Source of the DNA: Candidatus Omnitrophota bacterium
GTDB lineage: Bacteria; Omnitrophota; Gorgyraeia; 2-02-FULL-51-18
NCBI GenBank assembly: GCA_022072175.1
Contig: JAJVIE010000003.1
Location: 1,134,483-1,198,482 of the forward strand
Reading direction: 5' to 3'
Length of the DNA stretch: 64,000 nt
The notes under the pieces are model-generated. The model saw nothing but the letters and a program-made list of their open reading frames with translations, did no database searches and was not told where the DNA came from. The translations under genes and the position numbers were made by a program. Of this stretch, positions 6,190 to 39,545 are shown piece after piece (the stretch's first letter is position 1; each line of letters starts with the position of its first letter).

Positions 6190-8045
6190 CAGATCCGCCC
6201 GGTCCGCTCGACAAGCCCGCGGATCAGCGATGTTTCGGCCAGTTTGGTCAGACGCTCGATCGGAGCCGGCAGCACGATCGACCAGTTGGCATCGCTGGTC
6301 ACTCCCGGAAAGTTGATCCGGTAGTCCCAAGCGTCCATACCGGGCAGTTCCGCCGGCGCCAGCCAATCCTGCAGGAGCTGGACACTGAAGACCGACGCGC
6401 TGTTCAGCGAAGCGCCCAGGGCGGCCCGCAAGAACTCAGGCGTGGCGCGCTCGGACGGCGTCCCCTTGAGCCCCACGGCCGACCAATAATCGCTCCGCTC
6501 GCGGGACGTCGACCGGAAGGCCTCGAAGAGCGCCCTCGGCCGATGACCGCCGACCAGCCGAGACAGGGCCTCTTCGCTGTCCAGGGTCTCTTTCCAGCGC
6601 AACCGCCCGTAGCGCGAGCTCTTCTCATCGAACAGCTCGCCCCGGAGCGTTTCGGCGTCGAGCCCGGCCTCGGCGCACCAGCTGGCGAAAGAATACGTAT
6701 CGATCGTGCCCGCCTCGGCCTCCCACCATTGCCGCAAAGGCGAGATATCATGCGTCGAAACGACGCACACGGCGTTGGGGCGGTATTCCTCGGGGGACTT
6801 GAAAGCGGCGCCGGGGCGGTCCCAGTGCCGGCTCCAGCGCTGGATATCGGTACCCGGAAGCCCGGTCTCGCGGAGCAGGGCGTAGGAACAATCGGGCACC
6901 GTGCCCAAGTCCTCGGCCACCGGCAGCATCCTCGTCGAGCTCAGGATGGCCGACAGGATGCGGCGGCCGTGCGCCTCCCAGATATCGGTATCGGGCGGAT
7001 CGAAGGCCCCCTTGCCGCCCGGAGCGTCCTGAAAAGCCCAGACGCGGAAGATCCCCACGAAGTGATCGAGGCGGAAAAGATCGTAGAACGTCTCGGCGTA
7101 CAAGAGCTTGCGGCGGAGATACCGGTAAGCGTCCTTCTCGATCGCCGGCCAATCGTACGGTGGCATCCCCCAACGCTGACCCTCGGCGAAGCACAGGTCC
7201 GGGGGAGCTCCCGCGGCGAGGTCCAATTTGAAATACCGCTGTTCGGCCCAGACGTCGGCGCTGTCGCGCGACACCAGAAACGGCAGGTCCCCCAAAAGAA
7301 GGACGCCCATACGGCCGAGCGCGGCGTGCGCGGCCGCGAACTGCTCATGGCACTGCCACTGCAGCCATTCGTGGTACTCGATCTCGACCGCGCGCTCTCG
7401 CAGGAACGCCTCGTACTCGGCCCCGCTGCGGTGACGGAACGGCTCCGGCCAGTCCCACCAGGCCCGCTGACCGTAGATCGACTTGAGGACCTTGTACTGC
7501 GCGTACGGCCCGAGCCACTCGGCGCACCGGCGGCGGAACGCCGCGAACGCGGCCGGACGCTTGCCCTGCCGATCGAAGATCGATCGCAGCGCTTCGAGCT
7601 TGGCGCGCTTGACGGCGGTATCGTAGCGGACGCGGCCCTGGGGTCCGTACGTACGGCGGATACGGGCCGCCGCCAGACGTCCCGCTCCGGCGCCGCCGCC
7701 GCGCACGGCCCCGAGGCACAGGTGCATCGGCTCGAGCGCGATGGAACTCTCGGCATCGTACGGTCGGAACGTGTAGCCGACGTCGTTCATCGGCAGGAGC
7801 TGGAGGATGGACAGTCCGGCGGCGCGGGCCCATCGACCCAGCGGCACCAGGTCCGGGTACTCGCCGACACCGGCGGAGGTTTCCGAGTAGACGGAGAACA
7901 GGGGTGTGGCCACGCCCGCGCGGCGGCGGGCGCCGATCCGGGACCAATGCGCGCGGGCCGGACCCTGCAGGAAGGACGCGTACACCGTACCTCCGGTGCC
8001 GGTCGCGCGTCGAGCTCGCCTGAGAGATGGTGCTTGTTTGGTCAT
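6189..8045 (-). CDS. malQ: 4-alpha-glucanotransferase (amylomaltase, GH77)
   Basis: SILQLLPMND motif and GH77-length product. Start MTKQAPSL is Met22 of the track ORF. The upstream Met would overlap the divergent gene. Confidence 0.9.
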   Translation of the reverse strand: MTKQAPSLRRARRATGTGGTVYASFLQGPARAHWSRIGARRRAGVATPLFSVYSETSAGVGEYPDLVPLGRWARAAGLSILQLLPMNDVGYTFRPYDAESSIALEPMHLCLGAVRGGGAGAGRLAAARIRRTYGPQGRVRYDTAVKRAKLEALRSIFDRQGKRPAAFAAFRRRCAEWLGPYAQYKVLKSIYGQRAWWDWPEPFRHRSGAEYEAFLRERAVEIEYHEWLQWQCHEQFAAAHAALGRMGVLLLGDLPFLVSRDSADVWAEQRYFKLDLAAGAPPDLCFAEGQRWGMPPYDWPAIEKDAYRYLRRKLLYAETFYDLFRLDHFVGIFRVWAFQDAPGGKGAFDPPDTDIWEAHGRRILSAILSSTRMLPVAEDLGTVPDCSYALLRETGLPGTDIQRWSRHWDRPGAAFKSPEEYRPNAVCVVSTHDISPLRQWWEAEAGTIDTYSFASWCAEAGLDAETLRGELFDEKSSRYGRLRWKETLDSEEALSRLVGGHRPRALFEAFRSTSRERSDYWSAVGLKGTPSERATPEFLRAALGASLNSASVFSVQLLQDWLAPAELPGMDAWDYRINFPGVTSDANWSIVLPAPIERLTKLAETSLIRGLVERTGRI

Positions 8046-8056
8046 TTCTCGTCTTC

Positions 8057-8062
8057 TATAAT
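8057..8062 (+). promoter_or_regulatory. Candidate -10 box (TATAAT) for the AI-2E transporter gene
   Basis: tctTATAATaacagaggccaaacgacccgATG. A perfect TATAAT sits 20 nt upstream of the 8083 start, in the 37-nt divergent intergenic region. Confidence 0.35.
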
Positions 8063-8082
8063 AACAGAGGCCAAACGACCCG

Positions 8083-9144
8083 ATGGAACAAAAAAACCCC
8101 CTCATCACGTATTCGTTCGCGATCCTGCTGCTGTTCGTGCTGTATCAGGTCACGTTGATCCTGTGGCCGTTCTACATCACGCTCTTCTGGTCGGCGATCA
8201 TCGCTTTCGCCTTTCATCCGGCTTACCGGCGACTGGCGGACCGGATGGGTGGCCGCCGCACCGCGGCCGCTCTCCTGGTGACGGTGGTGATCCTGCTGGC
8301 CTGCGCGCCGCTGGCGTCCCTCTTCCTCTTCAGCCTGGTCTCCGAGTCGCTCCGCTCGTACGCGTGGATCTCGGAGAAGATCACCGGCGGTTCGCTCAAG
8401 AGCACTTTCGACTGGTTCGACGCCTTGCCGATCGTCAACCGGTTGGAGTCGTTCATCGGTTTCGACCTCACGCGCGACCACATCAAGCGCTGGATGCTGC
8501 AGGCCGCGGGGTCCGCCGCCAACTACGCCGCCGCGCACGCCGCGACACTCACCCGGGATGTCCTGAGCGGTATTTTCAACTTTTTCCTGACGTTCTTCCT
8601 GGTGTTCTTCATGCTGAGGGACGGCACCGGGATCCGTCGTTTCGTCTATGACCTGACGCCCCTGGGCAGTGACACCAAGGAACAGATCTTCACGATGCTC
8701 GAGGAGACGTTCGCGGCCGTGCTTCGGGGACAGATCCTGACCGCACTGGCCCAATCCCTGGTGGCGGGCCTGATCTTCTGGGCGCTGGGACTGCCTCTGC
8801 CGGTCCTGTTCGCGACGGTGATGTTCTTCACGTCGATGATCCCGGTGCTGGGAGCGACCTCGGTGTGGCTGCCGTTCGTCGTCTATCTGGTCCTGCAGGG
8901 GGCGATGGTCAAGGCGGGGATCCTGCTGGTGCTGGGGGTCTTCGTGATCAGCTTCATCGACAATCTGCTCAAGCCCTGGCTCATCGGGGACAAGACCAAG
9001 CTACCCTACCTCCTGCTCTTCCTGGGCATCCTCGGAGGTCTCCAGCTCTACGGGATCGTCGGGATCTTCATCGCCCCGGCGGTCCTGTCGCTGTTCTTCA
9101 CCCTCATCAAGATCTATCGCGAACAGTTCCTGACGAGCCGCTGA
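8083..9144 (+). CDS. AI-2E family transporter (PerM/YhhT, UPF0118)
   Basis: 353 aa, 8 TM helices. Its 3' end overlaps the convergent gene by 38 nt. Confidence 0.85.
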   Translation: MEQKNPLITYSFAILLLFVLYQVTLILWPFYITLFWSAIIAFAFHPAYRRLADRMGGRRTAAALLVTVVILLACAPLASLFLFSLVSESLRSYAWISEKITGGSLKSTFDWFDALPIVNRLESFIGFDLTRDHIKRWMLQAAGSAANYAAAHAATLTRDVLSGIFNFFLTFFLVFFMLRDGTGIRRFVYDLTPLGSDTKEQIFTMLEETFAAVLRGQILTALAQSLVAGLIFWALGLPLPVLFATVMFFTSMIPVLGATSVWLPFVVYLVLQGAMVKAGILLVLGVFVISFIDNLLKPWLIGDKTKLPYLLLFLGILGGLQLYGIVGIFIAPAVLSLFFTLIKIYREQFLTSR

Positions 9145-10789
9145 GCGGACGCCGTTTGGAGAAGATGGTGTAGAGGTACGGAGCGGCCAGCGCCGCGTAC
9201 AGCACCTGCCTCAACCGCTTGACCAGGCTCAGCGCGATGCCATGGGCCGCGCTGCCGCTCGAATAGGCCGCCAGATACGCCAACCCCTGTTCCTGGGCCC
9301 CGAGATTGTGGGGGATGAAGAACGTCACGGTCTGCACCGCCTGCATCACCTGCTGGATCACGAAGGCCTGCGTCAGCGTGATCTCCACGCCGAAGATACG
9401 GAACACGAAATAGACCTCGAGCAGGAAAGCCGTCCATCCCAGAGCGTGCCACATCGAGGACCTCAGCAGGTCCCCGCGCCGTTCGTTGAGCAACGACCGC
9501 AGTTCCAAGCCCATGAAACCCTTGAGCCGGGCGACCTCCTCATCGGACAAGCTCGAGCCGATCCTCGCGGCCATGCCGGGCAGGAGCTTGGCCAACCCCT
9601 GCCCCGACCCCCACAGGAGCCCCACGTAGATCACCGAGAACACGGTGGCCGCGCCCCCCACCCACAGGATGGCCGCGTCCGCGCCGCGCGCCAGTACGAT
9701 ACCCAGCGCGACCAGCACCACGAGGATCTCGCTGGTGGCGTACACGAGACGGGCGAAACAGATCGCGCGCACGGATTCCTCGAGCGTGGCCAAGCCCTTC
9801 TTGTACACCAGGAGGACCTTGAGCGGCTCGCCTCCGATATCCACGAACGGCGTGATCTTGTTGAACGAATCCCCGGCCAGGAAGATCCCGTACAACCGGC
9901 CGAACGGAATGGAACGCCGCGTCCTCTCGGGAAAGAGGTCGTACAGACCGAGCGTGTACAGCAGGCCTGTCAGCGGGAACACGAGCATCACCAGTCCCAG
10001 GCCCAAGCCGCCCTTGGACAGCAGGCCTCCGACCTCGGACCATGTCACGCCCTTCAGCGCCGACCAGAAGAGCCACAACCCCAGACCCAGGGCCGCGGAC
10101 TTACCCGCCCACAGGAGCGTGCGTCCGGACGACCAGCCGGTCAGCCGCTCCCAATTGGTGACCAGCCGCGTGATCCAGAGGATGTTGATGTAACCGGCCC
10201 CGACCGCCAGGAAGCCGGCGACATTGAGCGTGAGGACCGCCAGCCAGGCCAGGACGATGGAATCGCCGTTGTGGCTGAGCGTATCAAGAAAGGAGAAGAA
10301 GAGGCTTTTCTTGCGTCCCTCGCTGACGCCGTCCGCATGATAGGACGTACTGCATCCGACCGCGCGCTCCCGAACGACGATCAGGGCATGGAGGATCGAT
10401 CCCAGTACGGCCGCGACGTAGAGCTCTTCGGCCGGGAAGTCCCTGAACATCGCGTAATGACGGACGCCGAAGTACGCGCCCGTCCAGAGCGACAGGTCCA
10501 CCAGCAGGTCCGAGAACAGGTCGTACCACTTACCGAAGCGGGTGCGCCAGTCCCGCAGCCGCGCCAGCTCTCCGTCGCAGTTGTCCAACAGGAACGACAA
10601 GTGCAGCCAGGCGACCCCCAAGAGCAGGCAGGTCTGCGTGCCGAACGACACCGTCGCTCCGGCGAACACGCCGCAGAGCAACGCCAGGGTCGTCACGAAG
10701 TTCGGGGACACGCCGGTGCGGGCCAAGAACCGCGTCAGGAGGCCGGAGATCTTGCGGTTGACCTGAAGATAGGGTCTAAGGTCTTTCAT
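9107..10789 (-). CDS. Fusion protein: N-terminal CDP-alcohol phosphatidyltransferase with a C-terminal flippase-like domain (UPF0104 / lysyl-PG-synthase-TM-like)
   Basis: N-terminus carries the CDP-OH transferase signature DNCDGELAR...G...D...D. The remaining ~380 aa are polytopic with glycine-rich helices, typical of the TIGR00374/UPF0104 flippase-like family. Confidence 0.75.
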   Translation of the reverse strand: MKDLRPYLQVNRKISGLLTRFLARTGVSPNFVTTLALLCGVFAGATVSFGTQTCLLLGVAWLHLSFLLDNCDGELARLRDWRTRFGKWYDLFSDLLVDLSLWTGAYFGVRHYAMFRDFPAEELYVAAVLGSILHALIVVRERAVGCSTSYHADGVSEGRKKSLFFSFLDTLSHNGDSIVLAWLAVLTLNVAGFLAVGAGYINILWITRLVTNWERLTGWSSGRTLLWAGKSAALGLGLWLFWSALKGVTWSEVGGLLSKGGLGLGLVMLVFPLTGLLYTLGLYDLFPERTRRSIPFGRLYGIFLAGDSFNKITPFVDIGGEPLKVLLVYKKGLATLEESVRAICFARLVYATSEILVVLVALGIVLARGADAAILWVGGAATVFSVIYVGLLWGSGQGLAKLLPGMAARIGSSLSDEEVARLKGFMGLELRSLLNERRGDLLRSSMWHALGWTAFLLEVYFVFRIFGVEITLTQAFVIQQVMQAVQTVTFFIPHNLGAQEQGLAYLAAYSSGSAAHGIALSLVKRLRQVLYAALAAPYLYTIFSKRRPLSGSSGTVRDRS

Positions 10790-10849
10790 CGCGGGGGTCG
10801 ACTCACGGGACTGAGGTTACCCCCTGAGCGCGAGGATGTCAATTTGGCA

Positions 10850-10885
10850 CAAAAAAAGACCCGCCCCGGCTGTCGGGGCGGGTCC
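10850..10885 (-). terminator. Rho-independent terminator downstream of the OMP gene
   Basis: Minus strand reads GACCCGCCCCGacagcCGGGGCGGGTC followed by TTTTTTTG. Perfect 11-bp stem plus T-run, immediately 3' of the stop at 10899. Confidence 0.8.
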
Positions 10886-10898
10886 GGGCGGCTCGAGG

Positions 10899-11456
10899 TC
10901 AGCCGAAGAGGTACTTGATGCCCCCGCCTACGGCCACGTAATCGAGATCGTCATTGGCGGTCGAACCGCTCGGCAGGTCGCCCGGGTCCGTCCAACTGGC
11001 CTCGAAGTTGAGCGCCCAGTTGGAGTTGACGAACCAATCGACGCCGCCGCCCAACTTCCAAGCGAAAGCCGAATCGTCGCGGTCATCACGGTCCTCGATG
11101 GACGCGTAACCCGAAGCGGCGCCGAGGCCGAGCACACCGTAAGGCACGAACTCCTGTCCCTCGATATGCCAGCGCAGGATCACGTCGCCCATGATGTTGG
11201 CGATACCGACCTCGCCGGGCTCGGACTCATGCTCGCCCTGCTGCCAACCACCCTCCACACCCAAGGCGATCCACGGGGTCACACCGTAAGACATATTGAG
11301 CCCCACATAGGCCGCATCATCGATGGAGTTGTCGTTGAACGCTCCTGCCACGTAGCCGCCCAGATCGACCTTCCCCACGCGGTCGGGCGCCGTAGCCAAG
11401 GCGCTACCGCTGATCCCGAACATCATGACCATGGCCAGAACCGAGATCTTTTTCAT
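10899..11456 (-). CDS. Small outer-membrane beta-barrel protein (OmpW/OmpA-TM-like)
   Basis: Signal peptide MKKISVLAMVMMFGISGSALA, alternating amphipathic strands, C-terminal ...YLFG. AT-rich promoter region at 11457-11517 and a G-rich RBS. Confidence 0.8.
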   Translation of the reverse strand: MKKISVLAMVMMFGISGSALATAPDRVGKVDLGGYVAGAFNDNSIDDAAYVGLNMSYGVTPWIALGVEGGWQQGEHESEPGEVGIANIMGDVILRWHIEGQEFVPYGVLGLGAASGYASIEDRDDRDDSAFAWKLGGGVDWFVNSNWALNFEASWTDPGDLPSGSTANDDLDYVAVGGGIKYLFG

Positions 11457-11517: not shown

Positions 11518-12711
11518 CTAAGCTTTTCCGTCAATCCTCGTCGTCGCCGGACGGCGGCTTTCCAGGTGATAGGTCAGTTCAGTGGGTGCGATATCCGCGA
11601 TCTGCAGGGATTCGGGTAGGGCAAAATCGGCCGGACCGAGCGTCAGCGTACCGGTCCTCCGGCGCACATGCTGGGCGTGCACGCGCACGCGGATATCCTC
11701 GGCGCTCAAGAAATAGAACTCCTTGCGGGGACCGGACAGCGTCACATCGACCCGCTCCGGCAGGATCGTGGCGCCCTTGAGGGCCGGAGGCAGCTCCAGG
11801 CGCGCGGCGGGGATCACGTAGGTGCGTTGGACGATACCGGCGCCGTGCACGTTGACGAACCAGAGCGAAGAAGACAACACCAGGGCGAGCATCTTCTCGG
11901 CCCAGTTGCGACGAACAAAACCCGCGAACGCCGAACGCGGGTCTTCCGGACGCACCCGCTCCAAATGCGCCCGGATACGCCGCTCGAGCACGCTGGCGTC
12001 CTCCGCCCGTTCGATGCGTCCGGCCTCGGCCATCGACAGCGTCCCTTTCTCTTCGGAGACCACTAGGCACAGCGCGTCGGACACTTCGGACAATCCCAGA
12101 GCGGCGGCATGCCGCGTACCCGACCGATCGAGCTGGGAGAGGCTCTTGGACAACGGTAGGTGCGCCGAGAACAGCGTCACGCGTCCGTCCTCGATGACGA
12201 TCGCCCCGTCATGCGATGGCGAGGTCGGCTCGAAGAGACTCTTGATCAACGGTTCGCTCAGCCGTCCGCCGAGCTCCACCCCACCCGTCAGGTGCCGTGA
12301 CAACAGATCGTTACCGCGCAGGACCACCAAAGCCCCGACACGCTCGCGCGCCAGATCGGCCAGCGTGCGCGCCAGGAGGACCGCGTCGGGCGAGCGGTCG
12401 CCCGTCGAGCGGCGCCGCCCGGGATGGAGCCCCCAGAGCGCGACCTGCTCGAAGAAATGCCTCAACTCCTCTTGAAAGAGGACCACCGCGGCGATCAGGA
12501 TGACCGTGAAGAAGGCCTGAAAAACGGCGGCCGTCATCCACAACTGGAACTGCCGCGCCAGAACGTAGACGACGCCCATGATGAGGATACCGATGAGCAC
12601 GAAAGCCGCCCGGGTGCGCTTGACCAGCACGAGGGCCGTGTAGATCAGGAGAGCCAGGATCAGGATATCGGCGGCACCGGACAGCATGGTCGGCTCCCAG
12701 GTCAGGTTCAT
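11518..12711 (-). CDS. cdaA: Diadenylate cyclase CdaA with fused C-terminal YbbR/CdaR-like domain
   Basis: Three N-terminal TM helices. DAC domain motifs HDGAIVI and TRHAAALGLSE. About 200 extra C-terminal residues are beta-rich and YbbR-like. The chosen Met (MNLTWEPT) gives an ATGA overlap with the NUDIX stop. An alternative Met lies 24 nt downstream. Confidence 0.85.
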   Translation of the reverse strand: MNLTWEPTMLSGAADILILALLIYTALVLVKRTRAAFVLIGILIMGVVYVLARQFQLWMTAAVFQAFFTVILIAAVVLFQEELRHFFEQVALWGLHPGRRRSTGDRSPDAVLLARTLADLARERVGALVVLRGNDLLSRHLTGGVELGGRLSEPLIKSLFEPTSPSHDGAIVIEDGRVTLFSAHLPLSKSLSQLDRSGTRHAAALGLSEVSDALCLVVSEEKGTLSMAEAGRIERAEDASVLERRIRAHLERVRPEDPRSAFAGFVRRNWAEKMLALVLSSSLWFVNVHGAGIVQRTYVIPAARLELPPALKGATILPERVDVTLSGPRKEFYFLSAEDIRVRVHAQHVRRRTGTLTLGPADFALPESLQIADIAPTELTYHLESRRPATTRIDGKA

Positions 12712-13283
12712 CGCCGGGGACCCGGCCAAGACAACCCCAAGAGCGAGGCGGTCTTGACGAGCGCGACGATGCTCTGCCCGTCGGACAATACCCCCGAACG
12801 GAGCATCCGCGCCAACTCCGCCCAAGGGACGAAGCGCAAGTCGCTGATGCCTTCGGCGGCGGAGCCGTCCGGACGCGGAGCGTGCTCGAGGTCCTTCGCC
12901 AGATAGGCGTAGGACAGTTCCCCGGAAAGGCCGTTGACCGTCTGCCAAACGCCCGCGCTCCTCCAGGAGCGGGCGCTCAAACCCGTCTCTTCGAACAGCT
13001 CCCGACGGGCCGCGCGCAGAGGGGGCTGTCCTTCGGAGTTGCCTCCGGGCAGTTCCCACGAATCGCGGTCCGTCGGATAACGATGGATGCGGATGAGCCC
13101 GACCCGGGAACGCTCGTCGAGAGCGACCACGAAGACCGAAGGCCCCCGCGTCTCGATGACGTAGTACGCGCCGGGGCGGCCGTCGGGACGGCGGATACGG
13201 TCACGCCGGACGTGGTACCAGGGATTACGATGGACGACGCGTGAACCCAGGCGCAGCCAGGGTCCGCGGCGCTCAGTTGCCAT
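12708..13283 (-). CDS. NUDIX hydrolase
   Basis: Nudix box ELPGGNSEGQPPLRAARRELFEETG. Overlaps the glpX stop by 11 nt. Confidence 0.85.
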   Translation of the reverse strand: MATERRGPWLRLGSRVVHRNPWYHVRRDRIRRPDGRPGAYYVIETRGPSVFVVALDERSRVGLIRIHRYPTDRDSWELPGGNSEGQPPLRAARRELFEETGLSARSWRSAGVWQTVNGLSGELSYAYLAKDLEHAPRPDGSAAEGISDLRFVPWAELARMLRSGVLSDGQSIVALVKTASLLGLSWPGPRR

Positions 13284-27356: not shown

Positions 27357-28727
27357 TCAGGTGCGGTTGCCGACGCGCAACACACCCTGAGCCAGCACGG
27401 CCGCGATCTCGTCCCTGCGGTTCCATAAAAAGCCCCACCCGGAAGGTCTCAGGAGCATCCCGGCCGTATGGAGCGGCGTCAGCTTGTTGTCGTACAGGTC
27501 CCCCGCCAACAGCATGCGCCGGACGGCCCTGGTGTCCGGGTCGAGCACCGCGAAATCCGCTCCGACGAACAGCGCGTCGGTCCCGTACGGTTTCGAACAC
27601 CAGTCCGAGAGCGTCGCTGAATACGCGGCGATATGCGCTTCCTCGCCGGGCCAGACCCTCGCGCGCGCGGCACCCAGATCGATGGCGATGACCTTCCCCA
27701 GGTCCGGCACGCGCACGCGCAGGAGCGGCGCGATCCCGCTGAACGGCCCCAAGTGCTGGCGCAGATGCCTCAGGTAAGCGTCGAGTTCGAGCTGTAGCCG
27801 ATCGAACGGAACGCTGGGACCCCGGGGTTTGAGCGTGGGCCGGGATTCCTCGAGCGACGGCTCCAACCGCTTGATACGGGGTCGATCCGCTCCCCCACCG
27901 AGATCGCAGACATCGCCAAAACCCAGTCGAAGCACGCGCGGGTCCAGACGCTCCAGGTCCGCGGCAGTGAGCATCGCGCTGTTCTGGTCCTGTGAATCGG
28001 ACGAAAGGTAGCGATGCATCGACGCGAAAGGCACCACCCAACGCGGACGCAGCGCATCAAGGATGCGCAGGAAGCGCGCCGACAGCGCCTCTTTGATCCG
28101 GTCCGGGGGCGCCACATCGAGGAGCTTGTAGGCGTGATTGAAGTTCGTGAAGAGCACGTCCACCGGGCCGGTCCGTCGAGCCAGTTGGCGGATCGCTCCC
28201 ACCGGAAGGTTGCAGTCATTGAAATTGAGCAGGCGCGCGGACGGGGTCTCCATCACCAGGCAATTGTCGATGCCCGTACAAGGATGTCTGCGGATGGACA
28301 GCTCCCCTCCGAGCTTCTCCCACCGCAGCTCACCGAAGGGCCTGACGTCCTTGAACCCGGCGGCCCTGAGCGGCGTCACCATCTCGAAGTTCGCGGACAC
28401 GTTGGCATGGACGCGCAGGTCCGGCCGCAGAGCGGCCAGCTTGCGCAGTGTCGGGATGTGCAGGTGATCCCCGTGATAGTGGGAGATCCACAGGTCCGTC
28501 GCGGTGGCCGCTTCAGTGTAGGCGCCGGGGTTGTCATAACGCAATCCCCACCCGCCCTTGAAACAGGTCCCTTCGTACCACGGGTCGGACAATAGCCGCA
28601 CGGCCCCTGCCGTCAGCAGGATCGAGGCGTGATTGATCAGCTCGAACGAGAGCTCACTCACCCGAGAAGTCGAGCGCGCCCGAGTTGATGCAGTATCGGA
28701 GCCCCGTCGGGCGGGGGCCATCGTCAA
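27357..28727 (-). CDS. MBL-fold metallo-hydrolase
   Basis: HYHGDH (HxHxDH) metal motif. Start uncertain because the N-terminal ~25 codons overlap the msrB 3' end. Alternative starts lie near 28661. Confidence 0.7.
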
Positions 28728-30605: not shown

Positions 30606-31511
30606 CTACTTGCCCGCCGCGTACAAGCGGTGGAACAGTCTCAGATAGGTCCGTCCGAGCGGATGATCGAGCCAGCGCTTACGCCGTGATTCCAGCGACT
30701 CTGGATCGAAAGAGCGGACACGCACCGGCTGGCCGTAAAGACTTTCGTACCCCTTCTTCATTCTCAGCGCCGAGCTCTCGGCGACCAGGCGCGCGGCCGC
30801 CTTGAACGGCCAGGGGTATCGTCCGGCCAGGTCCAGCCGCAGATCGTGACAGGCATCCACGACGCTGCCGGCTTGCTCGCTGAGGTCCTGCTCTCCGGAG
30901 ATCCGGTAATAAGCCATCGGCGCGTCGAGGATCAGGACCTTCCCGGCGTCCATCAGGCGGACCCAGAAGCGCATGTCGGCGTTCGGATACTCTCCGGGAC
31001 GAAAACCGCCCAATCTCCGCGCGAGCTCGACGTTGAAAACGACCCCGGGGAACGGCGAGAGGTTACCCGTCAAGAACCTCCAAACGTTGCACGATCGGAC
31101 GCGGCGGCCCGGCTCGATGTCCAGATGCACGGCGTCCGCGTCCTCTCCCCACGGGCACTCGACAGCGACCGCCGCGATGTCCGGACCGAGGTGCGGCAGC
31201 ACGCCGGCGATGAAGCGCTTGCCCAGCAGATCATCGTCATGAAGGATCGACAGCCATGGGGTCTCACAAAGCTCGATGCAACGGTTCCAGTTGGGGATGA
31301 TCCCGAGGTTTCGAGGATTGCGGTGATAGCTCACTCTCGGGTCCCCCAGCGCCTCCACCGCCCGCTCGAACCGGTCGTGGTCCGAGGCGTCATCGACGAC
31401 CTTGACCGCGCAACGCACCGTCTGCCGGACCGCGCAGCGCAGCGCCTGAGCGAAATACCGGTCCCGGTTGTACGCGGTCAGCGCGATGGTGATCCGGTCG
31501 GTGCTCAGCAC
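30606..31511 (-). CDS. Family-2 glycosyltransferase
   Basis: ITIALTAYNRDRYF..VVDDASDHD..DDD. GTG start with a 7-nt overlap of the sulfotransferase stop. The N-terminal part of the track ORF is a wrong-frame extension. Confidence 0.75.
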   Translation of the reverse strand: MLSTDRITIALTAYNRDRYFAQALRCAVRQTVRCAVKVVDDASDHDRFERAVEALGDPRVSYHRNPRNLGIIPNWNRCIELCETPWLSILHDDDLLGKRFIAGVLPHLGPDIAAVAVECPWGEDADAVHLDIEPGRRVRSCNVWRFLTGNLSPFPGVVFNVELARRLGGFRPGEYPNADMRFWVRLMDAGKVLILDAPMAYYRISGEQDLSEQAGSVVDACHDLRLDLAGRYPWPFKAAARLVAESSALRMKKGYESLYGQPVRVRSFDPESLESRRKRWLDHPLGRTYLRLFHRLYAAGK

Positions 31512-32224
31512 GGCGCGGCGCTCCGGGGCTCGTGTCTGGAGAGCGGGTCGCGGGCCCAACGTCGAGCCTCCTCGGCGTTCGTGAAGACCTCCAGCGGATC
31601 TCCGTCGGAGACGCGTCGCAGGGTCGGGCGGACACACGCGCCCGGACACCCGATGGCGGCGCTCAGCCCCCCGTCGAACACCCTCTGGGCATCGTCCCGG
31701 AGGTCCTCGTAGCGGACCCAGTAGACCGGGTCCGCGGCCGTCTCCGCCTCGAAGCCCGCGTACAGACGCCGGACCTCGACCGTGTAGCGCCGGAAATCCG
31801 CGGACCTGAACTCCGCCCGCCGTCGAAGCGGGACGACGGGCTCGTCGGCGCGGCGGGCCCACGTTCCGGTGAGACCGGCGCGTACGGCCGAGGCGTATTG
31901 GGCCAGGAGGTCCTCGCGGTACAGCGCGATCCAGCCGTTCGGAGAACAGGCCTCGCGCACCCGGGACAACGGCCAGCGGAGGTCTCGCAGCTGCTCGAGG
32001 GGCAGCTTGAACCCCCGCGCTTGGGCCTCGATACCGGACAAACCCTTCCTCAACGCCTCTTGGGCCGCGTCCACGGGCCGTCCGAACCATCGCGGGCGGC
32101 GGTCCGCCAAGGCCGGATTGAGGAGCTCCCCGCGGAAAGCCGCCCCCGGGACGGAGTTGAGACAATCGATAAGGTACCAGCTGCCCGAGCGCCCCGTGCA
32201 GACCACCACGTAAGTGCGGATCAC
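31505..32224 (-). CDS. Stf0-like sulfotransferase
   Basis: N-terminal YVVVCTGRSGSWYL (5'-PSB-like P-loop), about 240 aa. GTG start in a GGAGG-N7-GTGA arrangement overlapping the upstream TGA. Confidence 0.65.
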   Translation of the reverse strand: MIRTYVVVCTGRSGSWYLIDCLNSVPGAAFRGELLNPALADRRPRWFGRPVDAAQEALRKGLSGIEAQARGFKLPLEQLRDLRWPLSRVREACSPNGWIALYREDLLAQYASAVRAGLTGTWARRADEPVVPLRRRAEFRSADFRRYTVEVRRLYAGFEAETAADPVYWVRYEDLRDDAQRVFDGGLSAAIGCPGACVRPTLRRVSDGDPLEVFTNAEEARRWARDPLSRHEPRSAAPC

Positions 32225-34302
32225 AGGAACACCTCCGGATGCAGGGCCCGCAACGTCCTCTGATGCTCCCGATGACGCGCGACCGTCGCGGTGAGCATGG
32301 AGCTCGGGTTGACCCGGTAATAGAACAACGGCTTGGGTACGCGGCGGCCTGAGATGCCCTGTTTGCCCAGATGCAGCCAGAACTCCCAATCCTCATAACC
32401 GGGCACGTCGGCCTTGTAACCCCCGGCATCCTCCCAATCGGCCTTGCGGAACATCGCGCAGGCATCGATATAATTGGCCTCGGCCAGCCTTTCCAGCGAG
32501 TATTCCGGCGTTTCGACACGGACCGTCCTCTTGCCGAAACGGTACAGGTCCGTATACACGAATCCCTGTCCATGCTTTTCGATGTGGTTCAGACAAGTGG
32601 CCGCCATCGCCGGGTCCAGCAGGTTGTCCGCGTCCAACGGTACGATGTACCGGCCCCGCGCCGCCAGGATGCCCGTATTGCGGGCGGCGGCCAGCCCCCT
32701 GTTCGAATCGTGGTACACCACCCTCAACTTGGAGTGACGGCGCGCCAAGTCCCGGAGCAGGCGACGCGATCCGTCCGTCGAACCGTCATCGACGACCACC
32801 ACTTCAATACCCCTCAAGCTCTGGGTCAGCGCGGACATCACGCTCTCTCGCAGATGACGGGCATGGTTGTAGTTCGGGATGACGATGCTGACGTACGGGC
32901 ACCAGGACTTCCGGATGCCGGAGAGCCAGTAGCGCCGCCGCAGATACATGGATAACCATAGGCACAAGGTCCCCAACGCCGTCAGTGAACGCAGCCGCAT
33001 CGGACCGCGGCCCATGAAGAGCAGCCGCTCGAAGTCGCTCAACCGCGCTCCGAGACGCTCCACGAGCGGCAGCAAGGCGTCGTGCGCTCGCCGCAATGGA
33101 GCGGTGATCCGCCAGGAGACGGAACGCTCGAACCGGCCGATCGTCGCGTACGCCGCCGTAAGCTCCGAGCTCTTGCGCTCCAGGCGACGCCGTAAGTGCT
33201 CGACGCGGACGGAGGCCGGGAGCGCCGGCGCGGCGGGGGAGGTGCTGTCGGCCCGTGAGGCGGCGAAAACCTCCGGATGAAAGGAGCGGATCCGCTCGTG
33301 ATAGACACGATGGCGGCGGCGGGCGTTCCAGACCATGGACATCGGACGCACCTGGTACCAGAATCCGTGCATCTCCAAACGCTGGCCGGTGACGCCCATC
33401 TTGCCCAGCTGTATCCAGAATTCCCAGTCCTCGTACCCGTCGATCCCGCGCTTGTAACCGCCCGCCTCGACCCAGTGGTCCCGCCGGTACATGGCGCAGG
33501 TATCGATATAATTGGCCTTCTTGAGCTCCTCGTAATCGTACTGCGGCACGAAGACCTTGGCGGTGCGGCCGTCAGCGCGGAACTGATACAAGTGCGGGTA
33601 CACGAAACGGTCGGGAGCGGCGTCCAGCGCCTTGACGCACTCGCCGATGAGGTCCGGCTCGATGAAATTGTCCGCGTCCAGAGGCAGGATATAGCGGCCT
33701 CGAGCGGCTTCGACGGCGCGGTTGCGTGCCGCCGCCGGTCCTTGCTTGGGACACCCGAAGAACGCCCGGATCCGCGGATCCTTGTGCGTCTGACGCCGCA
33801 CCGCCTCGTCAGAACCATCGCTGGACCCATCGTCCGCGATGATGATCTCGTAGTCCGTATAGGACGACAACAACACCGAATCGACCGCCGCATCCAGGTC
33901 CGCACCGGCGTTGAAGTGCGGGATCACGACGCTGACCGTCGGCGACCAATGGGGCTCCTGTGCGACAGGCCGGCGCGCGGCGGCCGCCTTCTGTAAGCGC
34001 TCGCGAACCCTGCGCGCGTCGATGCCCGGCTGCGGCGTGAACATCGGTCTTCCGGCGAGCGTACGGCCATCGGTGGCGACGGTATCCGCCGCAACACCGC
34101 CGGTCCCGCCGCCCCCGCGGCCCAATCTGTCGCTGAGCCAGCGCAGTGGCGCCGTCCAGCGCCAGGAGCGCGAAGCGGCGAAATCCTCGATGACCCGCTT
34201 GGCCGCGTCCAACTCGATCGACAATGTCCTGTACCGGGTCTCGAGCGCGTCGTCCACAGCGGCCTCGGCCGGGGGTCCGGCAACGGGTATCGAAGGCGTC
34301 AT
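32221..34302 (-). CDS. Tandem-duplicated GT2 glycosyltransferase (two GT2 domains)
   Basis: Two homologous halves, each with VIP.YN...DDGS.DGS...PLDADN...DGYEDWEFW. Each half is preceded by a coiled-coil with an SWR(W/I)TAPLR motif. Confidence 0.85.
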   Translation of the reverse strand: MTPSIPVAGPPAEAAVDDALETRYRTLSIELDAAKRVIEDFAASRSWRWTAPLRWLSDRLGRGGGGTGGVAADTVATDGRTLAGRPMFTPQPGIDARRVRERLQKAAAARRPVAQEPHWSPTVSVVIPHFNAGADLDAAVDSVLLSSYTDYEIIIADDGSSDGSDEAVRRQTHKDPRIRAFFGCPKQGPAAARNRAVEAARGRYILPLDADNFIEPDLIGECVKALDAAPDRFVYPHLYQFRADGRTAKVFVPQYDYEELKKANYIDTCAMYRRDHWVEAGGYKRGIDGYEDWEFWIQLGKMGVTGQRLEMHGFWYQVRPMSMVWNARRRHRVYHERIRSFHPEVFAASRADSTSPAAPALPASVRVEHLRRRLERKSSELTAAYATIGRFERSVSWRITAPLRRAHDALLPLVERLGARLSDFERLLFMGRGPMRLRSLTALGTLCLWLSMYLRRRYWLSGIRKSWCPYVSIVIPNYNHARHLRESVMSALTQSLRGIEVVVVDDGSTDGSRRLLRDLARRHSKLRVVYHDSNRGLAAARNTGILAARGRYIVPLDADNLLDPAMAATCLNHIEKHGQGFVYTDLYRFGKRTVRVETPEYSLERLAEANYIDACAMFRKADWEDAGGYKADVPGYEDWEFWLHLGKQGISGRRVPKPLFYYRVNPSSMLTATVARHREHQRTLRALHPEVFL

Positions 34303-35222
34303 GCGGCCCTCCGCCGGAGCAGGAGGTTGCGCAACACCACATGCGCGGCGAACCTCAACGTCGCTACGGGTCTGACGGCGGCATAGAGCGCCAGCGCGGC
34401 GCTGTCGCGCGCGTCAGCGATGCGTTGGAGCGCGCGCGCAGCTCTCAAGCGCTCGCGCTCGATCCGATCCGACCCCGCGCCGCGCTCGAACGAAGCGCAC
34501 AATCGATCCAGGAAGACCTTGAGCTTGAGGATGCGCCTGAGCGTCATCGGTCCGTACGCGGCGCTGTGCTCATGGATCCGCCACCGCGTCAAACGTCCCG
34601 GCACCCTCCAGAACAGGGTCTCGGCGCTGACGTGCGCCAGGACCCACCAGTCGAGATTGGACCGGTGGCACCCGAGGCGGGGGACCCGCTCGAGCCACCG
34701 CCGTCGGACGATGAAGTGAGTGAACGACGCCACCGGATTACGCTGGAGCAGTTGGGGCCAAAGGCTCAAGGCGCGGCCCGACGGTACGCTCAGCGCGTTG
34801 GCCCACTCGTAGAGGGTCCAGTACACGACGCCTCCGGGCCGCCCGAAAGGCCTGTAGCGCGCGTACACCACGCCCACCTCGGGATGCTCGTCGAGCACGC
34901 GCATCTTGATCTCGAGGTTACGCGCTTCCCAAACATCGTCCGCCTCGATATAAGCGATGACCGGCGCCCGCGCTGCTGCGAGGGCCGTTTCCAGGGCCGT
35001 CTGAAGCCCCCGATTCACCTCATGCCTTATCACGCGCATCCGGACCGGGTCCCTGCGGCGCCAGCGCTCCAGGACCGCGGGAGTTCCGTCGCTCGACCCG
35101 TCGTCGACGACGATGAGCTCCAGATCGCCGCGGGTCTGCGCCAGCACCGAAGCGATCGCTCCGTCCAGATAACGCTCATAGTTGTACGTCGCAAGGAGGA
35201 CGCTGACCGCGGGGCCGCTCAC
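34299..35222 (-). CDS. Family-2 glycosyltransferase
   Basis: VSVLLATYNYERYL..VVDDGSSDGT..EADD. 4-nt overlaps on both sides. Confidence 0.85.
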   Translation of the reverse strand: MSGPAVSVLLATYNYERYLDGAIASVLAQTRGDLELIVVDDGSSDGTPAVLERWRRRDPVRMRVIRHEVNRGLQTALETALAAARAPVIAYIEADDVWEARNLEIKMRVLDEHPEVGVVYARYRPFGRPGGVVYWTLYEWANALSVPSGRALSLWPQLLQRNPVASFTHFIVRRRWLERVPRLGCHRSNLDWWVLAHVSAETLFWRVPGRLTRWRIHEHSAAYGPMTLRRILKLKVFLDRLCASFERGAGSDRIERERLRAARALQRIADARDSAALALYAAVRPVATLRFAAHVVLRNLLLRRRAA

Positions 35223-36250
35223 GCCGCGTTCCCCGGACGGCCGCCGCCGATCCGCCAGACGATCTCCCAGAGCGCTCCCGAGAACATCCCGAGCGTCATC
35301 GCGCAGGCATCAGGCACGAGCCAAAAGGCCGCCGACACCGCAAAACCCGCGCCGCGGCGCGTCGTCAGACGCGCCAGGAAGGCCCCCCAACAGACCGTCA
35401 ACATCGTCACGGCGAAGACCAACCATGCCAGCGCCGGGCCCGGACCCCACAACGCGCCCCAGACCGCGGCCGGCACGCTCAAGGTCGCCGCGAGCTGAAG
35501 GACCGAAGCGTGCGAAAAGGCCCCCCGGGCGGCGCCGCGGGCGCGGTAGCGCAGACACATCCTCGCGAAGAGGAACGGGATCACATAATCGTTGCGCAGC
35601 AATCCGAGCGGGCCGTAAGGCTTGAGGTGTTTGAGGAGCAGGCGGTGCTCCAACCGCACCTTGCGGCCGCGCGCGGCCAGACGCAACCCGAGCTCCGAGT
35701 CGGCCACTAACGATCCGAAAGGCCCCCGGATGGGCTCGAAGACGTCCAGCTCCGAGGCACGCACCGCGAACGCCGAACCGTAGAGGAAGTCGACCTCCTC
35801 CGGGCGGCTCCTAAATACATGTTCCATGTACTCGTTCTTGAAATCCCCCCACCAGGTGCCGGTCCGGTGACCGCCCTCGAGCAACCCGGTCACCGCGTCT
35901 GCCCGTCCGTCCAACACCGGAGCGCACAAGAGCGCCAGGCCGCCCGGCGGCAGGATCACGTCGGCATCCACGAACACCAGCACCGGACACTCCGTCGCGG
36001 CGAGGACGCCGGCATAGCGCGCCTCCATGGGTCCGGTGGCCGGTCCTTGGCGTGACACCACTTCCCAACCCAGGCGGCGCGCGATGGACGCGGTGCCGTC
36101 GGAAGACCCGTCGTCGACGACGATCCGCCGAAGAGGCCGCTCCATCTGGGAGTCGATGGACCCCAGACAGGCTTCGAGCGTGCGCTCGGCGTTGCGCGCG
36201 GGGACGATCACCGCGCAGGGCTGGACCGGAGCGCCGGCCGGATCAGGCAT
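35219..36250 (-). CDS. Family-2 glycosyltransferase with C-terminal transmembrane helices
   Basis: CAVIVPARNAE..VVDDGSSDGT..VDAD, then about 100 aa of hydrophobic helices. Confidence 0.8.
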   Translation of the reverse strand: MPDPAGAPVQPCAVIVPARNAERTLEACLGSIDSQMERPLRRIVVDDGSSDGTASIARRLGWEVVSRQGPATGPMEARYAGVLAATECPVLVFVDADVILPPGGLALLCAPVLDGRADAVTGLLEGGHRTGTWWGDFKNEYMEHVFRSRPEEVDFLYGSAFAVRASELDVFEPIRGPFGSLVADSELGLRLAARGRKVRLEHRLLLKHLKPYGPLGLLRNDYVIPFLFARMCLRYRARGAARGAFSHASVLQLAATLSVPAAVWGALWGPGPALAWLVFAVTMLTVCWGAFLARLTTRRGAGFAVSAAFWLVPDACAMTLGMFSGALWEIVWRIGGGRPGNAA

Positions 36251-39487: not shown

Positions 39488-39533
39488 CCCCGCAAAAGCG
39501 GAAAAACCCGCCGGGGACGGGCCCGCTTTCAGG

Positions 39534-39539
39534 TATAAT
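39534..39539 (+). promoter_or_regulatory. TATAAT -10 box 6 nt upstream of the wzm ATG (possible leaderless transcript)
   Basis: aggTATAATcggaccATG. Preceded by inverted repeat AAAGCGG-N21-CCGCTTT (39495-39529). Confidence 0.35.
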
Positions 39540-39545
39540 CGGACC

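What the first reader, a model, noticed from the sequence alone, without database searches (positions are those of the whole stretch)
9107..10789. CDP-alcohol phosphatidyltransferase fused to a flippase-like UPF0104 (MprF-TM-like) domain
A single 560-aa polytopic protein starts with a complete CDP-OH phosphatidyltransferase signature (DNCDGELAR..G...D...D). It continues into a ~380-aa domain with the glycine-rich helices typical of the lysyl-PG-synthase TM / flippase-like family. Fusing a phospholipid head-group synthase to a putative lipid flippase would couple synthesis to translocation. The specific lipid product is unknown.
Basis: partly seen in the sequence, partly recalled or inferred. 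Interest (0 to 1): 0.55.

Follow-up and report, generated by a model that had tools for sequence, protein, structure and literature searches.

The report
Head-group transferase fused to HpnL-like flippase
One membrane protein of an Omnitrophota bacterium joins an enzyme that attaches a nucleotide-activated polar head group to a membrane lipid with an MprF/HpnL-type lipid translocator; the same two proteins are neighbours in phosphonate-lipid and hopanoid gene clusters of many bacteria, so the fusion suggests a testable job for the long-unexplained hopanoid gene hpnL.

The parts
9107..10789 (-). Whole gene: 560-aa CDP-alcohol phosphotransferase / HpnL-like fusion. The stop codon is at 9107-9109.
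   Evidence: ORF. Codon bias. 100% identical to NCBI protein MOGMAGMI_01511 of a Candidatus Omnitrophica MAG.
10139..10789 (-). N domain (aa 1-217): a juxtamembrane helix plus 6 TM helices, CDP-alcohol phosphotransferase.
10508..10585 (-). Catalytic motif D69xxD72GxxA76R77x8G86xxxD90xxxD94.
   Evidence: Direct reading. Invariant in the 7 orthologs. Kept in all architectures.
10262..10369 (-). Cytoplasmic TM4-TM5 loop and start of TM5 (aa 141-176). It carries the clade-specific motif ERxxGCSTSxH...HNGD. D176 (or an acidic equivalent) is conserved family-wide. This is a candidate substrate pocket.
   Evidence: Invariant columns. Comparison across context classes. The functional role is inferred, not shown.
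10118..10138 (-). Short cytoplasmic linker (aa 218-224) at the position where split relatives have a stop/start junction.
   Evidence: Domain limits from local HMMs. Split genes overlap by 4 bp or lie 52 bp apart at this point in L005 and L006.
9155..10117 (-). C domain (aa 225-545): 8-TM PF03706 / HpnL-like putative lipid translocase.
9818..9874 (-). Motif GD(S/A)xNKxTPFxDxxGEPxK (aa 306-324) in the broken helix-loop-helix predicted at 296-330.
   Evidence: Invariant in orthologs. G306, N310, P314, G320, E321 and K324 are at least 90% conserved in 88 family members. Secondary structure of the model.
9206..9322 (-). Motif FFIPxxxGxQExGL (aa 490-503, E500) and motif KRxRQ (aa 524-528, R525 and R527) in the last two helices. 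This is a candidate equivalent of the MprF Glu-Arg gate.
   Evidence: P493, G497, R525 and R527 are invariant, and Q499 and E500 at least 90% conserved, in 88 sequences. RtMprF gate E280-R304 and SaMprF D254-R279 are described in PMC8131360. The equivalence rests on position and spacing (25 residues) only and was not verified by a residue-level alignment.
10857..10885 (-). Terminator-like hairpin between the upstream OMP gene and this gene. It implies that the fusion gene is transcribed on its own.
   Evidence: 12-bp stem with 10 G-C pairs, followed by a T run. This is a consensus match only.

Best explanation
The gene encodes a bifunctional inner-membrane protein with an N-in/C-in topology and 6 + 8 TM helices.

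Proposed mechanism.
1. The N domain is an active CDP-alcohol phosphotransferase of the AF2299/IPCT-DIPPS-like clade that is the conserved partner of HpnL. At the cytoplasmic face it takes a polar head group activated on cytidine nucleotide by a separate cytidylyltransferase and transfers it, with loss of CMP, to the hydroxyl of a membrane lipid.
2. The C domain is an HpnL-type member of the MprF-flippase (PF03706/PplT) fold. It moves the newly made lipid from the inner to the outer leaflet.

In the nearest relatives with informative gene context, the head group would be 2-aminoethylphosphonate delivered as CMP-AEP, giving a phosphonolipid.

What is shown: the domain identities, the intact catalytic motif, the fold, and the linkage of the two halves across phyla.

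What is inferred: the direction of the reaction (soluble donor, lipid acceptor), the translocase activity, and the identity of the head group. For this genome the head group is not supported by any local gene.
For: Domains and catalytic residues.

Topology. K+R-rich loops fall on the predicted cytoplasmic side.

Functional linkage of the halves.
- Split relatives are adjacent genes: L005 (4-bp overlap) and L006.
- In 119 genome loci chosen only by the N-domain motif: 53 co-directional N then C, 30 divergent, 2 fused, 1 C then N, 15 undecidable, 18 without a C gene.
- Four fusion architectures occur: N-C, C-N, C-X-N and X-N-C.

Soluble activated donor.
- The best solved relative is AF2299 at 58 bits, against 36-37 bits for CDP-DAG-using PIP synthases.
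- Three-domain relatives carry an intact (I/V)LAAGxGxR(L/F) nucleotidyltransferase domain, homologous to PntC-like genes found next to split modules.
- Stand-alone or fused NTP_transf_3 genes lie next to the module in Omnitrophota/Planctomycetia loci and in Roseomonas.

AEP as head group in relatives. PEP mutase, a phosphonopyruvate-decarboxylase-like TPP enzyme and a class-V aminotransferase are adjacent. The window's N domain nests within this AEP-associated clade in an NJ tree. PntC enzymes make CMP-AEP (PMC6697681). Nostoc and Burkholderia 'phosphonolipid' clusters contain both a CDP-alcohol phosphatidyltransferase and hpnL (PMC5987646; PMC8942020).

Translocase activity of the fold. The MprF TM domain binds and translocates lipids (PMC8131360). 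PaMprF scrambles lipids in vitro (PMC11980842).
Against: - The 64-kb window has no PEP mutase, decarboxylase, AEP transaminase, cytidylyltransferase or hopanoid gene.
- The other contexts of the fused clade (L001, L002/L003, L104) and of the closest split relative (L085) also lack them.
- No protein from the window's 1.59-Mb contig is among the 120 best PEP mutase-PntC homologues.
- The TM4-TM5 loop of the fused clade differs from that of the AEP-associated relatives, so the substrate may have changed.
- NCBIfam scores to archaetidylinositol-phosphate and PIP synthases, which use lipid-linked CDP donors, are about as high as those to IPCT-DIPPS.
- The C-domain family profile finds no MprF sequence in the PDB even at E <= 10, so the relation to MprF rests on the Pfam family and the predicted fold.
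- No PF03706 protein other than MprF has demonstrated translocase activity, according to the preprint 10.1101/2022.03.11.483950.
- The NJ tree has no support values.
Confidence: 0.6

Rival explanations
1. Classical phospholipid synthase plus flippase. The N domain would use CDP-diacylglycerol as donor and a soluble alcohol as acceptor (for example inositol-1-phosphate, as PIP synthase does). The C domain would flip the resulting phospholipid.
Against: All these equivalog scores are far below their cut-offs of 170-180 bits. AF2299 is clearly the best solved relative by sequence and by Foldseek. Relatives are repeatedly fused or adjacent to soluble-substrate cytidylyltransferases. No inositol-phosphate synthase was found in the window or among the conserved neighbour families that were annotated.
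Confidence: 0.2
2. The C domain is not a translocase. It would be an accessory membrane module that recruits or presents the lipid acceptor to the transferase, or stabilises it. The product would stay in the inner leaflet or be moved by other systems such as HpnN or Mla-like proteins.
For: Translocation has been shown only for MprF. The HpnL-like family is too diverged from MprF for sequence searches to find it. Clusters in Proteobacteria already encode HpnN, HpnM and MlaA-like transport proteins.
Confidence: 0.12
3. The enzyme makes a soluble product, as di-myo-inositol-phosphate-phosphate synthase does, and the C domain exports or regulates it.
Against: The partner fold is a lipid translocase with lateral membrane portals, not a solute exporter (PMC8131360). 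The conserved neighbours are lipid pathway genes. The equivalog score is far below its cut-off (40 against 580).
Confidence: 0.05
4. The fusion is an artefact: an assembly or sequencing error joined two adjacent genes.
For: Close relatives do have two separate, overlapping genes at exactly this junction.
Against: The same fused ORF occurs in seven 90%-identity clusters from NCBI, JGI, ENA and Logan assemblies at 40-78% identity. It also occurs in further representatives and in genome locus L104. The linker is in frame and has a model confidence above 80.
Confidence: 0.01

Closest known systems
MprF (lysyl/alanyl-phosphatidylglycerol synthase-flippase)
   Different: The catalytic partner is a membrane-embedded CDP-alcohol phosphotransferase at the N-terminus, not a soluble tRNA-dependent GNAT-fold synthase at the C-terminus. 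There are 8 rather than 14 TM helices in the translocase part. Sequence similarity to MprF is undetectable by profile search.
HpnL (TIGR03476), hopanoid-biosynthesis-associated membrane protein of unknown function
   Same: It is the best NCBIfam hit of the C domain. The stand-alone partners of the N-type gene range from bona fide HpnL (L011, 252.7 bits against a cut-off of 195.65) through a graded series (176, 165, 143 bits) down to the window domain. The conserved motifs are the same.
   Different: The window domain scores 102.5 bits, below the cut-off. It is fused rather than free-standing. No hopanoid gene lies in the 64-kb window.
AF2299 and IPCT-DIPPS of Archaeoglobus fulgidus (CDP-alcohol phosphotransferases with solved structures)
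   Different: The window protein lacks their N-terminal cytoplasmic nucleotidyltransferase-like domain, which is present in the X-N-C and C-X-N relatives. It carries a translocase domain instead. DIPPS makes a soluble product (from established knowledge).
The CDP-alcohol phosphatidyltransferase + hpnL gene pair of predicted 'Group 1 phosphonolipid' clusters (Burkholderia, Nostoc; Yu et al. 2013 as cited in PMC8942020 and PMC5987646)
   Same: It combines the same two protein types. In Omnitrophota/Planctomycetia and Roseomonas relatives the surrounding genes are also the same: PEP mutase fused to PntC, Ppd, AEP transaminase and a cytidylyltransferase.
   Different: There the two are separate genes. 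Here they are one polypeptide with none of the phosphonate genes nearby. Products of those clusters have never been characterised. Orthology of the Burkholderia and Nostoc genes to the window domains was not tested here.
PplT-domain fusions (Hauser et al., bioRxiv 10.1101/2022.03.11.483950)
   Same: The general concept is that the PF03706 domain occurs alone (E. coli YbhN) or fused to diverse lipid-modifying enzymes. CDART lists 148 such architectures.
   Different: The text names glycosyltransferases, kinases, HAD hydrolases, O-antigen ligases, methyltransferases and 'phosphotransferases'. It does not name CDP-alcohol phosphotransferases or HpnL.
Kennedy-type choline/ethanolamine phosphotransferases (CPT1/CEPT1)
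   Different: They have a 10-TM eukaryotic architecture, much lower similarity, and no translocase domain.

Membership tests
CDP-alcohol phosphotransferase superfamily (PF01066) | Motif Dx2DGx2ARx8Gx3Dx3D on TM2-TM3 | tested here: met
   D69, D72, G73, A76, R77, G86, D90 and D94 are all present and invariant in the orthologs.
CDP-alcohol phosphotransferase superfamily (PF01066) | Profile score above the Pfam gathering threshold | tested here: met
   39.4 bits against 22.
CDP-alcohol phosphotransferase superfamily (PF01066) | 6-TM fold with a juxtamembrane helix | tested here: met
AF2299 / IPCT-DIPPS subgroup | N-terminal cytoplasmic nucleotidyltransferase(-like) domain preceding the TM domain | tested here: not met
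   The protein starts at the juxtamembrane helix. The domain is present only in longer relatives.
PIP synthase / archaetidylinositol-phosphate synthase / DIPP synthase equivalogs (NCBIfam) | Score above the curated equivalog cut-off | tested here: not met
   48.7 against 180, 39.3 against 170, and 40 against 580.
PF03706 LPG_synthase_TM / PplT / UPF0104 | Profile score above the Pfam gathering threshold over the full domain | tested here: met
   79.4 bits against 33.4, covering profile positions 3-297 of 302.
PF03706 LPG_synthase_TM / PplT / UPF0104 | TIGR00374 'flippase-like domain' cut-off | tested here: not met
   36.7 bits against 43.2.
PF03706 LPG_synthase_TM / PplT / UPF0104 | MprF-type 8-TM translocase fold | tested here: met
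PF03706 LPG_synthase_TM / PplT / UPF0104 | Lipid translocation activity | not testable with these tools
   This needs a reconstitution assay. It has been shown only for MprF.
MprF | C-terminal aminoacyl-PG synthase (GNAT-fold) domain | tested here: not met
   There is no such Pfam or NCBIfam hit, and the protein ends 15 residues after the TM domain.
MprF | Intramembrane Glu/Asp-Arg gate pair (RtMprF E280-R304) | tested here: inconclusive
   E500 and R525/R527 are conserved and similarly spaced. No residue-level structural alignment could be obtained.
HpnL (TIGR03476) | Score above the curated cut-off of 195.65 | tested here: not met
   102.5 bits, although it is the best hit. Partners in other loci score 143-253 bits.
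HpnL (TIGR03476) | Genomic association with squalene-hopene cyclase / hpn genes | tested here: not met
   None in the 64-kb window. The feature is met in relatives: HpnI/J/K/N/M/A above cut-offs, and shc-hpnCDEGH-hpnA in Roseomonas.
Predicted phosphonolipid ('Group 1', CDP-OH type) cluster | Adjacent PEP mutase, phosphonopyruvate decarboxylase, AEP transaminase and PntC cytidylyltransferase | tested here: not met
   Absent from the window and from other fused-clade contexts. Present next to the split module in related Omnitrophota/Planctomycetia loci and in Roseomonas.

The most novel reading that the evidence does not exclude
The CDP-alcohol phosphotransferase / HpnL module, free-standing or fused as here, may act on hopanoids rather than on glycerolipids. 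Under this reading it would esterify a cytidine-activated head group onto the terminal hydroxyl of a bacteriohopanepolyol: 2-aminoethylphosphonate where the AEP genes are present, and another phospho-alcohol elsewhere. HpnL would then flip this phospho(no)-hopanoid for export by HpnN, HpnM and MlaA-like proteins.

If true, this would define an undescribed class of phosphorus-containing hopanoids. It would also assign functions to HpnL and to the unnamed CDP-alcohol transferase family that ranks sixth among gene families near shc (Table S8 of 10.1101/2025.07.29.667474).

Evidence not excluding it.
- The module sits beside HpnI/J/K/N/M in Alpha- and Gammaproteobacteria; HpnJ also occurs in Nitrospinota loci.
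- It sits beside HpnA, an HpnH-architecture gene and an HpnG-like gene in Omnitrophota/Planctomycetia.
- It sits inside the shc-hpn core together with the AEP genes in Roseomonas marmotae.

Against it: no such lipid is reported in the searchable literature, and for the window organism hopanoid capacity is unknown.
Probability: 0.25. Interest if true: 0.8.

Novelty: new variant of a known kind. Interest (0 to 1): 0.55.

Why it matters
Three separate literatures touch this module without connecting it.
- Hopanoid biology lists hpnL as a conserved gene whose function 'remains unclear' (10.1101/2025.07.29.667474, PMC12583986). It leaves the co-located CDP-alcohol transferase unnamed.
- Phosphonate genomics draws the transferase and hpnL in predicted phosphonolipid clusters whose products have never been isolated (PMC8942020, PMC5987646).
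- The MprF/PplT field proposes that PF03706 domains are general lipid translocators but has no second worked example.

The fusion in this window, together with the reverse-order and three-domain fusions and the 83% adjacency, is Rosetta-stone evidence that HpnL works with a CDP-alcohol phosphotransferase as a synthase-translocase pair. That turns an open annotation problem into an experiment that can be done in cultured carriers. It also predicts where to look for bacterial phosphonolipids, and possibly for phosphorus-bearing hopanoids, which would matter for biomarker geochemistry and the marine phosphonate cycle. For the Omnitrophota organism itself the result is more modest: a monocistronic envelope-lipid enzyme with an unknown product.

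Tried and rejected
- First genome-contig scan with the ortholog alignment: 109 pattern matches, none confirmed. Strict orthologues of the fused protein appear absent from the species-representative genomes apart from L104.
- Sequence search of the PDB with a broad C-domain profile: no MprF hit even at E <= 10, so the Glu-Arg gate could not be aligned residue by residue.
- First structure model from 7 sequences: only pLDDT 70.5. It was replaced by a 130-sequence model.
- Local gene context as a clue to the head group: rejected. The window neighbours are unrelated: an AI-2E transporter, an OMP beta-barrel, CdaA, NUDIX, GlpX, MalQ, TerC and PurEK. The rest of the window has no lipid, inositol, phosphonate or hopanoid gene. 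The amine oxidase at 36243-37826 is not HpnE (40.7 against 283 bits).
- Search for a PEP mutase-PntC protein of the same genome: none from the 1.59-Mb contig among the best 120 of 1,232 hits. This is inconclusive.
- Two PEP-mutase contexts (L126, L127): uninformative.
- Metagenome scan for more fused orthologues: it returned only more distant split relatives.
- My first literal 'LDNCDG' filter misclassified 25 loci. It was corrected by using the best N hit per locus.
- Single-linkage clustering merged N, C, aminotransferase and NTP genes through fusions and shadow ORFs. Those genes were therefore identified individually.
- Inositol-lipid reading suggested by the NCBIfam hits and the Bacteroides BT_1521 neighbour: kept only as a rival, because no inositol-phosphate synthase was found in the window or among the annotated neighbour families.
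Full report
**1. The observation.** The window carries a single uninterrupted 560-aa ORF at 9107-10789 on the minus strand. Its codon-position GC is typical of the window's real genes (GC3 0.87). The ATG is the first start after an in-frame stop 9 codons upstream, and the N-terminus is shared by the orthologues. The quoted signature is present in full: D69-N-C-D72-G-E-L-A-R77-x8-G86-x3-D90-x3-D94.

Profile scores are as follows.

| Model | Region | Bits | Cut-off |
|---|---|---|---|
| PF01066 | aa 28-142 | 39.4 | 22 |
| PF03706 LPG_synthase_TM | aa 232-531 | 79.4 | 33.4 |
| TIGR03476 HpnL (best C-half hit) | C half | 102.5 | 195.65 |
| TIGR00374 | C half | 36.7 | 43.2 |
| Archaetidylinositol-phosphate synthase | N half | 48.7 | 180 |
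| IPCT-DIPPS | N half | 40 | 580 |
| PIP synthase | N half | 39.3 | 170 |

The protein is 100% identical to MOGMAGMI_01511 of a Candidatus Omnitrophica MAG, on a 1.59-Mb contig.

**2. The fusion is real.** Six further 90%-identity clusters (40-78% identity, 533-571 aa) from NCBI, JGI, ENA and Logan assemblies have the same two-domain architecture. An exhaustive profile search of 1.84 billion representatives found 175 proteins at E <= 1e-30. I classified all 167 proteins held after with domain HMMs.

| Architecture | Count |
|---|---|
| N-C, as in the window | 13 |
| C-N, reverse order | 8 |
| C-X-N, with an insert of about 200 aa | 12 |
| X-N-C, with an N-terminal extension of 140-280 aa | 12 |
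| N half alone (up to 255 bits) | about 20 |
| C half alone (up to 353 bits) | 98 |

All N-containing forms retrieved by the motif search keep the complete catalytic motif. The closest stand-alone halves are encoded by adjacent, co-directional genes. In L005 they overlap by 4 bp, and in L006 they are 52 bp apart. An assembly artefact is excluded.

**3. Structure.**
- *Model quality.* A 7-sequence alignment gave a mediocre model (pLDDT 70.5). A 130-sequence alignment of fused and split relatives gave pLDDT 91.8 and pTM 0.80.
- *Distance from MprF.* The C-domain family is too diverged for a profile to find MprF in the PDB.
- *Topology.* Loop charges follow the positive-inside rule for an N-in/C-in protein with 6 + 8 TM helices. 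This explains why fusion in either order is topologically allowed.
- *Conserved residues.* Across 88 C-domain relatives, E458, P493, G497, R525 and R527 are invariant. E321, K324, Q499 and E500 are at least 90% conserved. E500 and R525 lie 25 residues apart in the last two helices. This resembles the gate pair D254/R279 of SaMprF and E280/R304 of RtMprF (PMC8131360). I could not verify the equivalence residue by residue.

**4. The two halves are a conserved module.** I scanned 185,579 species-representative genomes for DNA encoding [L/F]DNCDG[E/D/Q]xAR, a criterion that involves the N domain only. Local HMM classification gave the following.

| Arrangement | Loci |
|---|---|
| Co-directional, N then C | 53 |
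| Divergent | 30 |
| Fused (L096, L104) | 2 |
| Co-directional, C then N | 1 |
| Undecidable (N gene at the locus edge) | 15 |
| No C gene in the locus | 18 |

Thus 86 of 104 decidable loci (83%) link the two. The taxa are Alpha- and Gammaproteobacteria, Nitrospinota, Planctomycetia, Omnitrophota, Chlamydiae, Gemmatimonadota and Flavobacteriales. Eight extra metagenome loci repeat the pattern.

**5. What surrounds the module.** I clustered the neighbouring ORFs and scored representatives against curated models.
- *Hopanoid side-chain and transport genes, above NCBIfam cut-offs.*

| Family | Bits | Cut-off | Loci in cluster |
|---|---|---|---|
| HpnI | 438 | 310 | 27 |
| HpnN | 1001 | 752 | 27 |
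| HpnJ | 738 | 578 | 25 |
| HpnM | 182 | 160 | 19 |
| HpnK | 359 | 233 | 14 |
| HpnA | 460 | 368 | 10 |

- *The partner C gene.* It is a bona fide HpnL in gammaproteobacterial L011 (252.7 against 195.65). It grades downward in other phyla: 176, 165 and 143.5 bits, and 102.5 for the window domain.
- *Phosphonate genes.* In Omnitrophota/Planctomycetia/Chlamydiae-binned loci the module is preceded by a complete 2-aminoethylphosphonate pathway. This comprises PEP mutase fused to an NTP_transf_3 domain, a two-subunit TPP decarboxylase whose best hits are phosphonopyruvate and sulfopyruvate decarboxylase, a class-V aminotransferase (sometimes fused to NTP_transf_3), and a stand-alone cytidylyltransferase.
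- *Hopanoid genes in the same loci.* The module is followed by HpnA and an HpnG-like phosphorylase. A radical-SAM + DUF3463 gene (the HpnH architecture) lies upstream.
- *A cultured example.* Roseomonas marmotae 1318 shows the combination in RefSeq annotation on plasmid p1318-3. The gene order is VacJ/MlaA, MMPL transporter, polyprenyl synthetase, cytidylyltransferase, aepX, aepY, HpnL-like gene, AEP transaminase, CDP-alcohol phosphatidyltransferase, ispH, hpnH, hopanoid phosphorylase, shc, hpnE, hpnD, hpnC, glycosyltransferase, hpnA. Its two genes score 92 and 217 bits against the broad N and C profiles.

**6. Where the window protein sits.**
- In an NJ tree of N domains (no support values) the window and its fused orthologues nest inside the Omnitrophota/Planctomycetia clade. 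The earlier-branching lineages of that clade all carry AEP genes.
- The fused sub-clade itself shows no AEP or hpn genes in the DNA available. This covers the window, L001, L002/L003 and L104, plus the closest split relative L085.
- The 64-kb window contains none either.
- A terminator-like hairpin upstream (10857-10885) and a convergent downstream gene suggest a monocistronic gene.
- No protein from the window's contig is among the best 120 PEP mutase-PntC homologues. This is inconclusive.
- The catalytic core and an acidic TM5 residue (D176) are shared with all context classes. The cytoplasmic TM4-TM5 loop (ERxxGCSTSxH...HNGD) is specific to the fused clade and its closest split relatives. 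The substrate may therefore differ.

**7. Mechanism.**
- *Shown.* The transferase domain has an intact, active-looking catalytic motif. The C domain has an MprF-type translocase fold. The two are strongly linked across phyla.
- *Inferred, donor.* The donor is a soluble cytidine-activated head group and the lipid is the acceptor. Three lines support this: the proximity to AF2299/IPCT-DIPPS; the three-domain relatives with an intact (I/V)LAAGxGxR(L/F) nucleotidyltransferase, homologous to the PntC-like neighbours; and the adjacent cytidylyltransferases. PntC enzymes make CMP-AEP (PMC6697681).
- *Inferred, translocation.* The HpnL-like domain flips the product, by analogy with MprF (PMC8131360) and the scramblase activity of PaMprF (PMC11980842).
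- *Confidence.* I put the general mechanism at about 0.6. The rival with CDP-DAG as donor is at about 0.2.

**8. Comparison with what is known.**
- The PplT preprint states that PF03706 domains are fused to many enzymes. It does not name CDP-alcohol phosphotransferases or HpnL.
- A Nostoc genome paper labels those genes as a CDP-alcohol phosphatidyltransferase and hpnL (PMC5987646).
- A survey of Acetobacteraceae noted terpenoid genes next to PEP mutase and suggested 'an undiscovered terpene-phosphonate' (PMC8776678).
- Hopanoid papers of 2025-26 still list HpnL as of unknown function.
- The supplementary table of one of them ranks 'IPR000462 CDP-alcohol phosphatidyltransferase' sixth among gene families within 20 ORFs of shc. 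It has 1,409 occurrences, against 1,506 for hpnC and 1,398 for hpnG, but the family is left unnamed.
- I found no report of a phosphorus-containing hopanoid.
- The fused protein is therefore a new variant of a known kind. Its main value is as Rosetta-stone evidence linking HpnL to a CDP-alcohol phosphotransferase.

**9. Verdict.** The product of this particular protein is still unknown. The most novel reading not excluded is that the module makes and flips phospho(no)-hopanoids. I give it a probability of about 0.25, and it can be tested directly in cultured carriers such as Roseomonas marmotae.

Noticed in passing
window 31505-41101: A surface-glycan-type cluster on the minus strand. It holds a weak Stf0-like sulfotransferase, a 693-aa double-GT2 protein, two further GT2 genes, a PRK07208.1-4-type FAD oxidoreductase (510 bits against a cut-off of 389; not HpnE) and a TPR protein. 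An ABC-2 permease and its ATPase follow on the plus strand.
   Followed up: partly
window 11518-13283: The CdaA (diadenylate cyclase) ORF is 513 aa from its first GTG, but the CdaA_N domain starts at aa 127. The ORF overlaps the NUDIX gene (12708-13283) by about 350 nt. The real start is probably about 115-125 codons downstream.
   Followed up: no
window 10790-10900: A strong terminator-like hairpin (12-bp stem, 10 G-C pairs, T run) lies at 10857-10885 on the minus strand. A perfect TTGACA with a weak -10 (TAACCT) lies about 50 nt upstream of the fusion gene's ATG. No obvious Shine-Dalgarno sequence is present.
   Followed up: partly
window 9107-9144: The convergent AI-2E transporter gene (8083-9144, plus strand) and the fusion gene overlap by 38 bp at their 3' ends. 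The same neighbours (OMP beta-barrel, fusion, AI-2E, GH77) recur in the 78%-identical orthologue loci L002 and L003.
   Followed up: partly
window 27357-28727, 41678-43510, 57396-58691 (all minus strand): Three long ORFs with gene-like codon bias (456, 610 and 431 aa) have no Pfam or NCBIfam match.
   Followed up: no
L026 4132-5406; L080 712-1953; L094 1684-2949; L103 5181-6389: Nitrospinota loci carry an additional 403-425-aa protein 1-3 kb from the N/HpnL-like module. It has a CDP-alcohol transferase domain in its C-terminal half, like IPCT-DIPPS. Its N-terminal half was not examined.
   Followed up: no
L010, L045, L059, L063, L072, L078, L097, L098, L106: Many alphaproteobacterial loci have two or three further CDP-alcohol transferase paralogues clustered next to the module. 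This suggests a larger lipid head-group locus.
   Followed up: no
L081 2608-6164; L100 263-2203: PEP mutase-cytidylyltransferase and AEP-transaminase-cytidylyltransferase fusion proteins lie divergently next to the CDP-alcohol transferase gene. The cluster therefore encodes two cytidylyltransferase domains, as reported for Burkholderia 'Group 1' clusters.
   Followed up: partly
L128 (Roseomonas marmotae p1318-3, NZ_CP061094.1 9748-38140): The whole shc/hpn hopanoid cluster, with embedded AEP-phosphonate genes, sits on a 430-kb replicon annotated as a plasmid in a pure-culture isolate. It lies next to sox genes and an IS701 transposase. A stretch of about 2 kb (locus 6694-8670) has no listed gene.
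   Followed up: partly
P0019 (679 aa): A GT4 glycosyltransferase is fused to a CDP-alcohol transferase domain of the same DxCDGELAR type. This is another head-group-enzyme fusion in the family.
   Followed up: no
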